A DNA stretch of 29,757 nucleotides from a virus. Lineage: Duplodnaviria; Heunggongvirae; Uroviricota; Caudoviricetes. The stretch spans positions 1 through 29,757 of the IMG/VR virus record IMGVR_UViG_2534681675_000023; one strand, 5' to 3'. Shown here in pieces: positions 12,202-13,552 of this stretch. Every line of letters starts with the position of its first letter. Positions within the stretch are counted from its first letter, which is position 1. Both the position numbers and the translations under genes were made by a program. The notes under the pieces are model-generated. The model was not told where the DNA came from and did no database searches. It saw nothing but the letters and a program-made list of their open reading frames with translations.

Positions 12202-12828
12202 CTATTTTTTGGCAATTAGTGCATGCATCGCCATTTCATGACCTTTTCTGCGAAGTTTTTTCACACGGGGCTTGAGCCTAGTGAAAGAACTTGGGCTAAT
12301 TGTCGACTCAGCTTCAACTATATCATTGCGGGGAGCACCCGTTTTAGCATCTTCATAGCGGATAAGTATTTTAAACGTGCCCTCATCAACTCCGACACCT
12401 TGCAAGTGATGAAGTTTAGATGAAACAGCACCGATTAAATAATCATGAATTCCTTGCAGGCCCGTTTTACCGATTGGTGAATAGGTATGCAACATATTTG
12501 CACCTACAGGAAGGAACTGGCGAAAGTCAGGAACATGCATCTTGTTAACTTCAACAGAAGTGTATGCTTTCATGTCAAAAGAAACTCCAGGTTTCCGTGC
12601 ATTGACTTCTAGCCATTGAGGCAAATCGAGAATATATTTGCTCTCAGCAGTTACTTCCAGTTTCTTCCTAGACGATAATGTCACGTCCATTACCTGAGCC
12701 ATATCAGCCATAGAAAGCTCAGCGGCCTTCCGGTTGATGGCTTGTACCCGCTCGCTCACGTTAGGTCCGAATGCATCGAACAACGAAATTTCAGCAGCTG
12801 GTTTAATGGCTTCAGTTTTAACAGACAT
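12202..12828 (-). CDS. Hypothetical protein, downstream partner of zeta-like kinase
   Basis: About 208 aa from ATG at 12828 (MSVKTEAIK…) with AAGGAG 6 nt upstream; starts about 25 nt after the kinase stop; no motif recognised by eye. Confidence 0.65.
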   Translation of the reverse strand: MSVKTEAIKPAAEISLFDAFGPNVSERVQAINRKAAELSMADMAQVMDVTLSSRKKLEVTAESKYILDLPQWLEVNARKPGVSFDMKAYTSVEVNKMHVPDFRQFLPVGANMLHTYSPIGKTGLQGIHDYLIGAVSSKLHHLQGVGVDEGTFKILIRYEDAKTGAPRNDIVEAESTISPSSFTRLKPRVKKLRRKGHEMAMHALIAKK

Positions 12829-12853
12829 ATACACTCCTTAGATAGGACACTTA

Positions 12854-13552
12854 TTATACACCTAAATGCGCTAGATCGCTAACGTCTGAATATGGGCAGC
12901 TATGGGAGGTAGTCCAGTTTTCAAGGGTCACGTTAGGAGTATAGTCGACCACGAACTGACCATCATTTTCAGGATCTTCCCGTCGATGATAAACATTGAG
13001 TGTAAATAGGCCTGCATATTTCGCGAGCATATGTTCAATGGTCTCTCTGCTCTTGAAAAAGTTCGCTTTAAGAACCTCTAACGGAACCTTACGAGAGCGG
13101 GCTTGGGCAAAAACCCACGCGTAAGCCGGATCAAAATAGACGTAATTCAGTGCTACCTGATAACCAGCCTTCAGGGCCAGATCAAAGTTTCTCTCCGCAA
13201 TACCTATACTGGAGAAAGTAGAGTCCATAACAATGGGATAGCCTTCAGATAGCGCTTTTTTGTAGATAAAATCGACCATTCTGGAGGCAGGTCTCTGATA
13301 GTCCACAGAGTTCTCTTCATTGTAGTAGGGGAACCACCAGCGAAAATCATCAGCATCAATTCGAACAATGTTTGTGATGCCATGTTGTTCTAAAAGACGA
13401 TTTAAGAGCTCGGTTTTACCTGCAGCAGGCGAACCAGCCATAAACAGGACGTGCTTGGCATTGGCATTTTTGTTTGCTGTTACGTAACTATAAACGTAAG
13501 GGCGAATTGCCTCACCAAACTCAGGCAGTATGGTTTCAAGTTCTTTTTTCAT
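12854..13552 (-). CDS. Zeta-toxin-family P-loop kinase (PezT/zeta-like)
   Basis: 232-aa ORF; Walker A GSPAAGKTE followed by IVRIDADDFRWWFP, collinear with zeta/PezT GQPGSGKT…VIDNDTFKQQHP; further collinear blocks (…KAGYQVALNYV…, …LNVYHRRED…) as recalled from PezT. Confidence 0.8.
   Translation of the reverse strand: MKKELETILPEFGEAIRPYVYSYVTANKNANAKHVLFMAGSPAAGKTELLNRLLEQHGITNIVRIDADDFRWWFPYYNEENSVDYQRPASRMVDFIYKKALSEGYPIVMDSTFSSIGIAERNFDLALKAGYQVALNYVYFDPAYAWVFAQARSRKVPLEVLKANFFKSRETIEHMLAKYAGLFTLNVYHRREDPENDGQFVVDYTPNVTLENWTTSHSCPYSDVSDLAHLGV

What the first reader, a model, noticed from the sequence alone, without database searches (positions are those of the whole stretch)
12202..13552. 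Zeta-toxin-like kinase with a downstream 208-aa partner instead of an upstream epsilon-type antitoxin
The 232-aa protein has the zeta/PezT signature (Walker A GSPAAGKTE, then IDADDFR…FP, and later collinear blocks). Canonical zeta toxins follow a small epsilon or PezA antitoxin; here the kinase is the first gene of its operon. It is followed about 25 nt later by a 208-aa ORF with a consensus SD and no motif I recognise. This reversed, size-atypical architecture suggests an unusual TA or abortive-infection module, with the partner as antitoxin, sensor or effector.
Basis: partly seen in the sequence, partly recalled or inferred. Interest (0 to 1): 0.8.

Follow-up and report, generated by a model that had tools for sequence, protein, structure and literature searches.

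The report
Zeta-like kinase with novel downstream partner
A rare two-gene cassette in an E. coli prophage pairs a zeta/PezT-type kinase with a previously undescribed downstream protein, and it is most likely a toxin-first toxin-antitoxin or phage-exclusion module, though neither toxicity nor defence has been tested.

Summary
On the minus strand, a 232-aa kinase (13552..12854) is followed 25 nt later by a 208-aa ORF (12828..12202) with an AAGGAG ribosome-binding site.

- **Kinase.** It is a true zeta/PezT-fold kinase (Pfam PF06414 E=7e-29; Foldseek hits zeta and PezT). The Walker A lysine and catalytic Asp are invariant, but the UNAG-binding GTxR motif is replaced by STFS.
- **Partner.** It belongs to a tiny orphan family: 34 hits, two of them spurious, in 1.84 billion representatives. 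It has no Pfam, PDB or defence-database relative.
- **Linkage.** In 14 distinct loci every intact kinase of this subfamily is followed 24-26 nt later by a partner. The contexts are prophage, plasmid, integrative island and chromosomal islets.
- **Partner anatomy.** Only the first ~48 residues are conserved. The middle is effectively replaced even between kinases 88-90% identical.
- **Asymmetry.** Natural 58-62-aa partners sit behind intact kinases. Orphan partners exist, but no orphan kinase was seen.
- **Location.** The pair lies in a hypervariable cargo hotspot of a lambdoid prophage.

Best reading: a toxin-first TA/abortive-infection module whose antitoxin is new. Toxin-first order has a precedent in AvrRxo1:Arc1. 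I rate it a new variant of a known kind, of moderate interest.

The parts
12854..13552 (-). Zeta/PezT-fold P-loop kinase, 232 aa (putative toxin). Walker A GSPAAGKT = 13412-13435. RIDADDFR with catalytic Asp68 = about 13346-13363. 'MDSTFSS' stands in place of the zeta EGTxR motif.
   Evidence: Pfam PF06414 E=7e-29. PezT and zeta sequence hits. AF2 pLDDT 91. Foldseek 1gvn/2p5t E~1e-10 to 1e-9, TM 0.62-0.67. Invariant K46, D66, D68, R152, R154, R169 in 25 homologues.
12829..12853 (-). 25-nt intergenic spacer with a consensus Shine-Dalgarno (AAGGAG, 12834-12839) for the partner.
   Evidence: Read from sequence. A 24-26 nt spacer with a purine-rich SD is conserved in 11 loci: AGGAG in ten, GAGGGG in L014. 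The kinase's own RBS is weak in most of them.
12685..12828 (-). Partner residues 1-48: the conserved N-terminal module (SLFDAFGP...AAELSMxDMA). It is the proposed kinase-binding, neutralising core.
   Evidence: Mean pairwise identity 83% against 19% for the middle. It is the only part shared with Pantoea, Pectobacterium and Pluralibacter partners. It is the whole of the natural 58-62-aa partners that sit behind intact kinases.
12424..12684 (-). Partner residues 49-135: hypervariable middle region.
   Evidence: Identity is 21-25% where the kinases are 88-90% identical. AF2 pLDDT <50.
12202..12423 (-). Partner residues 136-208 plus stop: a semi-conserved helix and beta-hairpin (LxxLxxVGVD..I.Y.DP.TG), then a strongly basic tail (net +9) ending in KK.
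   Evidence: Alignment A1. Region statistics and charge. AF2 secondary structure at low confidence.
12164..12189 (-). Terminator-like hairpin ending the two-gene operon.
   Evidence: Pattern scan: 10-bp stem, then a T-rich tail. Consensus match only.
13553..13640 (-). Non-coding leader and probable promoter region of the operon. It includes a near-palindrome, ACAAATTAGCTAGATTTGT, at 13617-13635.
   Evidence: No ORF. Inverted repeat found, but it is not conserved in L002 or L004, and no promoter was called on this strand. Function is inferred only.
13641..14060 (-). Frameshifted remnant of a RepL-like gene that travelled with the cassette. The annotated 77-aa 'hypothetical protein' (13717-13950) is part of it.
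   Evidence: Frames 0 and 2 together match the RepL-like protein of L004 (PF26868). The same 3' remnant lies upstream of the kinase in L002 and L004.

Best explanation
This is a toxin-first, type II-like toxin-antitoxin / abortive-infection cassette carried as prophage and plasmid cargo.

Shown:
- The first gene encodes an intact zeta/PezT-fold ATP-dependent phosphotransferase whose catalytic residues are invariant across the subfamily.
- The second gene is an obligately linked partner. Only its first ~48 residues are conserved.

Inferred:
- The kinase phosphorylates an essential nucleotide-type metabolite and arrests growth when free. The target is probably not UDP-GlcNAc bound in the canonical way, because the GTxR motif is missing.
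- The partner's N-terminal module binds and blocks the kinase.
- The strong SD on the partner, against a weak RBS on the kinase, keeps the partner in excess.
- The hypervariable middle, the C-terminal hairpin and the basic tail are accessory. They may set the partner's instability or sense a phage-derived trigger.
- Loss of the element, or infection, would then free the kinase.
For: - **Kinase identity and integrity:**
- **Strict linkage.** Every intact kinase of the subfamily is followed 24-26 nt later by a partner, in 14 distinct loci from unrelated contexts. These are an E. coli lambdoid prophage, a Pectobacterium integrase island beside relE/HTH, Enterobacter plasmids, and Pantoea, Pectobacterium, Pluralibacter and flk-fabB chromosomal islets, plus 8 IMG/VR contigs.
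- **Partner translation favoured:** conserved SD on the partner, weak RBS on the kinase.
- **Minimal partners.** Partners of 58-62 aa, consisting only of the N-module, sit behind intact kinases.
- **Asymmetry typical of TA pairs.** Orphan partners occur without a kinase (L022, the second copy in L005, and L024, where the kinase is deleted at the same flk-fabB site that holds the pair in L026). No intact kinase lacks a partner.
- **Fast-evolving partner:** it diverges far faster than the kinase.
- **Hotspot location.** The pair sits in a low-GC cargo interval, DUF977 to hokD/DUF968. In other E. coli this interval holds DUF262, KwaB-like, SMEK+methyltransferase, Sll1717-type ATPase and similar genes.
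- **Precedent:** a toxin-first zeta-type TA exists, AvrRxo1:Arc1 (PMC4938570).
Against: - There is no experimental or computational evidence of toxicity, of a kinase-partner contact, or of phage protection.
- No complex prediction was possible.
- The partner model is poor (pLDDT 50).
- Neither protein matches any PADLOC model.
- No conserved operator or DNA-binding domain was found for autoregulation.
- The substrate is unknown, and the GTxR motif that defines UNAG-directed zeta toxins is absent.
- The 'orphan partner, never orphan kinase' asymmetry rests on small numbers: 3 against 0. In L017/L018 the kinase is truncated and the partner is gone. In L019-L021 both genes are broken. So plain decay also occurs.
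Confidence: 0.55

Rival explanations
1. Phage-sensing abortive-infection system. This is a sharper version of the main reading. The partner is a sensor-antitoxin. Its hypervariable middle binds a phage protein, which releases the kinase and aborts infection. Plasmid or prophage addiction would be secondary.
For: - The middle region is effectively swapped (21-25% identity) while the kinases stay 88-90% identical. This pattern suggests an arms race or cassette exchange.
- The pair sits in a prophage cargo hotspot that elsewhere carries KwaB-like, DUF262 and similar genes.
- Its neighbours on an Enterobacter plasmid are DUF4041, ImmA/IrrE and HNH genes.
- A borderline Abi_C ORF lies next door in the window.
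Against: - Natural partners lacking the variable region altogether (58-62 aa) accompany intact kinases, so sensing cannot be essential to the module.
- There is no PADLOC hit.
- There are no phage-challenge data.
- Location in a hotspot is only circumstantial.
Confidence: 0.3
2. Non-toxic accessory kinase. The enzyme modifies a metabolite, antibiotic or nucleic-acid end, as related P-loop kinases do (polynucleotide kinase, phosphotransferases). The partner is an adaptor or regulator rather than an antitoxin.
For: - The kinase also matches the generic AAA_33 family and polynucleotide kinases.
- The UNAG-binding GTxR motif is absent.
- Toxicity is unproven.
Against: - The best sequence and fold matches are consistently the toxins zeta and PezT, then AvrRxo1.
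- The cassette is a sporadic, horizontally moved two-gene unit on mobile elements.
- Orphan partners are seen but never an orphan kinase. That fits a dangerous enzyme better than a benign one.
Confidence: 0.12
3. Reversed roles (type VII-like). The partner is the harmful or effector protein, and the kinase neutralises or regulates it by phosphorylation.
For: The enzyme-first order and tight coupling would also fit an enzyme antitoxin acting on its neighbour. The partner has a basic, possibly nucleic-acid-binding tail.
Against: - Partner genes occur without any kinase (L022, L024, second copy in L005).
- The partner has no enzymatic or membrane-toxin features and no confident fold.
- Truncated 58-62-aa partners are retained.
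- The zeta fold is a small-molecule kinase fold.
Confidence: 0.05
4. Plasmid-establishment or anti-defence cargo. The pair acts for the mobile element against host defences, since on Enterobacter plasmids it lies near leading-region genes.
For: On these plasmids it is adjacent to ParB_N, psiB, psiA, hok and RepL-like genes.
Against: - It is transcribed in the opposite direction to psiB/psiA/ParB_N.
- It also occurs in chromosomal islets between core genes and in a prophage moron position.
- It shows no similarity to known anti-defence proteins in the libraries searched.
Confidence: 0.05

Closest known systems
Epsilon/zeta (pSM19035) and PezAT (Streptococcus pneumoniae) type II TA systems
   Same: The kinase shares fold and family (PF06414). 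The P-loop and catalytic Asp align with zeta Asp67 / PezT Asp66. These are the best sequence and structure matches.
   Different: - Gene order is toxin first.
- There is no epsilon/PezA-type three-helix-bundle antitoxin, and the partner is unrelated in sequence.
- The UNAG-binding GTxR motif is replaced by S-T-F-S.
- The host range is Enterobacterales mobile elements.
AvrRxo1:Arc1 (Xanthomonas and others)
   Same: It is a zeta-fold kinase toxin with the antitoxin encoded immediately downstream. The toxin lacks canonical UNAG specificity, since AvrRxo1 phosphorylates NAD (PMC4938570; PMC6362051). It is the third-best group of fold matches.
   Different: - AvrRxo1 is about 420 aa and is a type III effector.
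- Arc1 is about 98 aa and carries a KExFD...YExxYY motif, which is absent from all 34 partners examined.
- There is no sequence hit to the Arc1 chain.
ng_epsilon1/ng_zeta1 (Neisseria gonorrhoeae), Rv0366c-Rv0367c (M. tuberculosis) and EzeT (E. coli)
   Same: These are examples of zeta-family kinases with non-canonical antitoxins, altered substrate range or a missing GTxR (PMC5923241; PMC6362051). EzeT as a fused cis-antitoxin is from my own knowledge.
   Different: In those systems the antitoxin is upstream or fused at the N-terminus. None has a partner with the SLFDxFGP...AAELSMDDMA module. ng_zeta1 matches this kinase only weakly in sequence (E=0.012).

Membership tests
Zeta toxin / PezT kinase family (Pfam PF06414) | Significant match to the family profile, above the curated threshold | tested here: met
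   101.1 bits against a cutoff of 22.3, E=7e-29, covering residues 28-181. All homologues carry PF06414.
Zeta toxin / PezT kinase family (Pfam PF06414) | P-loop (Walker A GxxxxGK[TS]) and the catalytic Asp equivalent to zeta Asp67 / PezT Asp66 | tested here: met
   GSPAAGKT (residues 40-47) and RIDADDFR align with PezT IDGDSFR and zeta IDNDTFK. K46, D66 and D68 are invariant in 25 sequences. The role of Asp67/66 is taken from PMC5923241 and PMC6362051.
Zeta toxin / PezT kinase family (Pfam PF06414) | Zeta/PezT three-dimensional fold | tested here: met
   The AF2 model has pLDDT 91.4. Top Foldseek hits are 1gvn, 3q8x and 2p5t (E 1e-10 to 1e-8, TM 0.62-0.67), then AvrRxo1.
UNAG-directed zeta toxins (zeta, PezT) | GTxR motif (zeta Gly117-Thr121) and Glu100, which bind UDP-GlcNAc | tested here: not met
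   The aligned segment is D-S-T-F-S/A-S (MDSTF is invariant) in place of E-G-T-x-R-T. Only the Thr is kept. The Glu100 position is Asp or variable. The motif definition is from PMC6362051.
UNAG-directed zeta toxins (zeta, PezT) | ATP-dependent phosphorylation of UDP-GlcNAc, and toxicity when free | not testable with these tools
   Needs enzyme assays and expression tests.
Epsilon/zeta or PezAT operon (system level) | An epsilon- or PezA-type antitoxin encoded directly upstream of the toxin | tested here: not met
   Upstream lie non-coding leader and a frameshifted RepL-like remnant. The upstream gene differs between genomes. The partner profile finds no epsilon or PezA chain in the PDB at E<=10.
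AvrRxo1:Arc1 module | Toxin-first order, with the antitoxin immediately downstream in the same direction | tested here: met
   A 24-26 nt gap on the same strand is conserved in all loci. The Arc1 order is taken from PMC4938570.
AvrRxo1:Arc1 module | Arc1 homology (81-121 aa, motif KExFD(x25-27)(Y/L)ExxYY) | tested here: not met
   The motif is present in 0 of 34 partners. There is no PDB sequence hit to the Arc1 chains of 4z8q-4z8v.
Catalogued anti-phage defence systems (PADLOC-DB v2.0.0) | Match of either protein to a defence-system model | tested here: not met
   For the kinase the best E-values are 0.04-0.06 (DndF, PDC-S41), which are not significant. The partner has no hit at all.
Type II toxin-antitoxin systems (generic) | A two-gene operon of toxin and directly binding protein antitoxin, with toxicity neutralised by the partner | tested here: inconclusive
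   Operon structure, obligate linkage, a faster-evolving partner, and orphan partners without orphan kinases all fit. Binding and neutralisation are untested.

The most novel reading that the evidence does not exclude
The cassette founds a new abortive-infection family. A zeta-fold kinase with a non-UNAG substrate would be held in check by a new ~48-residue inhibitory module. The hypervariable region fused to that module would act as a swappable phage sensor, comparable in logic to fused sensor-antitoxins such as CapRel (my own knowledge).
Probability: 0.25. Interest if true: 0.65.

Novelty: new variant of a known kind. Interest (0 to 1): 0.42.

Why it matters
If confirmed, this would add a third, unrelated antitoxin solution for zeta-type kinases in Gram-negative bacteria. 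The inhibitory element would be compact (about 48 residues) and easy to dissect. The kinase lacks the UDP-GlcNAc-binding motif, so finding its substrate could reveal a new lethal phosphorylation target. The swappable middle of the partner, together with the position in a lambdoid-prophage cargo hotspot, makes it a testable candidate for a phage-sensing antitoxin. The family is very rare, however: 8 of 5,426 complete E. coli genomes and 4 of about 100,000 species genomes. Its components also follow known principles, so the impact would be incremental rather than field-changing.

Tried and rejected
- **Partner structure.** AF2 with a 23-sequence alignment gave pLDDT 50 and pTM 0.17. That is too poor for a fold search, so none was run on it.
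- **Partner profile against PDB, Pfam, PHROGs, NCBIfam and PADLOC.** Nothing was found.
- **Two large hits in the representative search** (P0070, P0076). They are repetitive proteins (P0076 is made of Ig domains; P0070 has only scattered low-complexity Pfam hits) and match a short stretch nine times. I rejected them as spurious.
- **Upstream 77-aa ORF as a hidden epsilon-like antitoxin.** Rejected: it is a piece of a frameshifted RepL-like gene.
- **Conserved operator in the promoter region.** The near-palindrome at 13617-13635 is not conserved in L002 or L004.
- **Phage records.** There was no DNA or protein match in 50,697 phage genomes.
- **Literature.** Searches by accession, PF06414 and zeta-toxin/defence terms found no paper describing this pair.
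- **Distant kinase P0059** (33% identity). It has a different 54-aa overlapping downstream ORF without the N-module, so I left it outside the family.

Full report
**1. Observation**

The finding lies on the minus strand. ORF listing and direct reading give a 232-aa ORF at 13552..12854 and a 208-aa ORF at 12828..12202. They are separated by exactly 25 nt, TAAGTGTCCTATCTAAGGAGTGTAT. AAGGAG sits 5 nt before the ATG. A terminator-like hairpin follows at 12189-12164.

The first protein matches Pfam Zeta_toxin PF06414 at 101 bits (cutoff 22.3, E=7e-29) and AAA_33. The second matches nothing in Pfam, PHROGs, NCBIfam or PADLOC.

**2. Where it is**

The window is an E. coli lambdoid prophage integrated next to rspB (int, xis, exo, dicB, cI/cro-like, ydaT-like, DUF977 ... 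hok/sok, DUF968, rusA, Q). The pair is annotated only as 'zeta toxin family protein' plus 'hypothetical protein'. It is transcribed antisense to the early-right genes.

It is rare:
- 8 of 5,426 complete E. coli genomes
- 1 of 72,556 plasmids
- 0 of 50,697 phage records
- 4 of 100,044 species-representative genomes
- 8 IMG/VR contigs

The interval between DUF977 and hokD/DUF968 is a cargo hotspot. In other E. coli the same flanks enclose DUF262, KwaB-like+QueH, SMEK+methyltransferase, DUF4209, Sll1717-type ATPase, DUF5677, hydrolases and more. GC drops from about 50-55% to 34-46% across it.

Directly upstream of the kinase is a frameshifted remnant of a RepL-like gene. The same 3' remnant precedes the kinase in a Pectobacterium island and in Enterobacter plasmids. 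The cassette therefore probably came from a plasmid or phage-plasmid. The annotated 77-aa upstream 'gene' is part of that pseudogene, not an antitoxin.

**3. The kinase**

Sequence searches of solved structures give PezT (E=1.4e-12 with the family profile), zeta (4.6e-8), then Pnkp1. The AF2 model is confident (pLDDT 91.4). Its best Foldseek matches are zeta (1gvn, 3q8x) and PezT (2p5t) with TM 0.62-0.67, followed by AvrRxo1.

Across 25 homologues of 34-88% identity the following are invariant: FMAG.P..GKTE, R.DADDFR, D110/T112/F113, R152, R154 and R169. D68 aligns with the catalytic Asp67 of zeta and Asp66 of PezT (role from PMC5923241 and PMC6362051).

The GTxR motif that binds UDP-GlcNAc (definition in PMC6362051) is replaced by S-T-F-S/A. 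This is a real, probably active member of the zeta kinase family. Its substrate cannot be assumed to be UNAG (inference).

**4. The partner**

Homologue searches find a very small Enterobacterales family. There are 23 clusters at 90% identity. The search of 1.84 billion 50%-identity representatives returned 34 hits, and two of those are spurious repeat-protein hits.

The alignment shows a sharply modular protein:

| Region (residues) | Mean pairwise identity | Note |
|---|---|---|
| 1-48 | 83% | MSVKTEAIKPAAEISLFDAFGPNVSEQVQAINxRAAELSMDDMA |
| 49-135 | 19% | hypervariable |
| 136-175 | 51% | helix plus beta-hairpin, LxxLxxVGVD..I.Y.DP.TG |
| 176-208 | 30% | net charge +9, ends in KK |

When kinases are 88-90% identical, the partner's middle is only 21-25% identical, so it has effectively been replaced. 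AF2 gives no confident fold (pLDDT 50). No member of the family matches any Pfam model. The profile finds no PDB chain, including epsilon, PezA, Arc1 or ng_epsilon1. The Arc1 motif is absent.

**5. Linkage**

Every intact kinase of this subfamily that I could place on DNA is followed 24-26 nt later by a partner. All partners carry the N-terminal module. The 11 loci whose junction I read also carry a strong SD.

| Locus | Context |
|---|---|
| window | E. coli prophage |
| L002 | Pectobacterium carotovorum integrase island, beside relE/HTH |
| L004-L006, L023 | Enterobacter plasmids |
| L007, L016, L034 | Pantoea; partner 253-266 aa |
| L009, L015 | Pectobacterium versatile/brasiliense; partner 125 and 191 aa |
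| L013 | Serratia |
| L014 | Pluralibacter; partner 58 aa |
| L026 | flk-fabB islet; partner 62 aa |
| L029-L033 | further IMG/VR contigs |

The distant partners share only the N-terminal module. The kinase's own RBS is weak in most loci.

Orphan partners exist without a kinase:
- L022.
- A second copy in L005.
- L024, where the kinase has been deleted down to a 65-nt remnant. This is the same flk-fabB site that carries the intact pair in L026.

I found no intact kinase without a partner. Decayed loci also occur. In L017/18 the kinase is truncated and the partner is gone. In L019-21 both genes are broken.

**6. Mechanism**

The best-supported reading is a toxin-first, type II-like TA / abortive-infection cassette.

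- **Shown:** an intact zeta-fold kinase; an obligate, co-transcribed downstream partner that is favoured in translation; conservation concentrated in a ~48-residue N-module that is sufficient in natural minimal partners; orphan partners but no orphan kinase; carriage on mobile elements and in a cargo hotspot.
- **Inferred:** the free kinase is toxic; the N-module binds and blocks it; the variable remainder tunes stability or senses a trigger.

I put about 0.55 on the TA-type reading as a whole. A specifically phage-sensing version has about 0.25-0.3. The main caveat to the sensing version is that minimal partners lacking the variable region still accompany intact kinases. Rivals are a benign accessory kinase, reversed roles and a plasmid anti-defence function. 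They are listed with their evidence in the rival-explanations section, and each is less consistent with the orphan-partner asymmetry and with the fold matches.

**7. Comparison with the known**

At the level of the kinase this is a member of the zeta/PezT family. Profile, P-loop, catalytic Asp and fold were all tested and met. It is not a member of the UNAG-directed subgroup, because GTxR was tested and not met.

At the system level it is not an epsilon/zeta or PezAT operon. There is no upstream antitoxin and no epsilon/PezA homology. It works like AvrRxo1:Arc1 in gene order (PMC4938570), but the partner is not an Arc1 homologue. Zeta kinases with unrelated antitoxins or without GTxR are already documented (PMC5923241; PMC6362051). 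A review of PezAT diversity looked for antitoxins of 'orphan' zeta toxins only among upstream genes (PMC10532202). That approach would miss this architecture. No paper in the searchable library mentions these proteins.

**8. Verdict**

The feature is real and correctly observed. It is a new variant of a known kind: a zeta-type kinase with a novel, modular downstream partner. It is worth a simple toxicity and rescue test and a complex prediction. The principle itself is not surprising to a TA or defence specialist. Interest 0.42.

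Noticed in passing
window 13641-14060 (-): A frameshifted C-terminal remnant of a RepL-like replication gene lies directly upstream of the kinase. The RefSeq 77-aa 'hypothetical protein' (13717-13950) is a fragment of it. The same remnant precedes the kinase in Pectobacterium (L002) and in Enterobacter plasmids (L004/L006). This points to a plasmid or phage-plasmid origin for the cassette.
   Followed up: yes
window about 10350-14400 (between the DUF977 gene and hok/sok): This is a hypervariable cargo hotspot of Qin/Rac-like lambdoid prophages. 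With the same flanks, other E. coli genomes carry DUF262, KwaB-like+QueH, SMEK+methyltransferase, DUF4209, Sll1717-type ATPase, DUF5677, alpha/beta hydrolase and others. GC falls to 34-46% here.
   Followed up: partly
window 10797-11141 (+) and 11211-11663 (+): Two further low-GC (about 35%) cargo ORFs of 114 and 150 aa lie here. The 150-aa protein has a borderline Abi_C (PF14355) match at 23.2 bits against a cutoff of 24, and a weak AbiJ hit in PADLOC. It may be a second, separate abortive-infection-type cargo.
   Followed up: partly
L022 5001-5681; L005 12597-end; L024 5001-5189 (compare L026): These are orphan partner genes with no kinase. Two are in plasmid leading-region neighbourhoods (ParB_N, psiB, psiA, hok). 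One is in the flk-fabB chromosomal islet, where only a 65-nt internal kinase remnant survives.
   Followed up: yes
L025 62-562 (P0097); P0079, P0084: A few small proteins carry two tandem copies of the 'L.D.FG...S' N-module motif. P0097 sits at the start of a short contig, followed by small phage-like ORFs. Whether a kinase precedes it cannot be seen.
   Followed up: no
window 13617-13635: A near-perfect 19-bp palindrome, ACAAATTAGCTAGATTTGT, lies in the leader/promoter region of the operon. It is not conserved in L002 or L004, so an operator role is unsupported.
   Followed up: partly
window 14409-14583 (+), 4791-4842 (-), 8657-8773 (+): Rfam gathering-level hits. One is sok antisense RNA, next to a hok gene that RefSeq marks as partial. 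One is DicF sRNA. One is a full-length ALIL pseudoknot (120.9 bits) lying inside the ydaT-like gene region rather than in an IS3 transposase. The last is unexpected and unexplained.
   Followed up: no
L010-L012 5001-5859: The most distant kinase relative (P0059, 33% identity, metagenomic) has a different arrangement. A 54-aa basic ORF overlaps its 3' end by 8 nt and lacks the N-module. It may be yet another downstream-partner solution.
   Followed up: no
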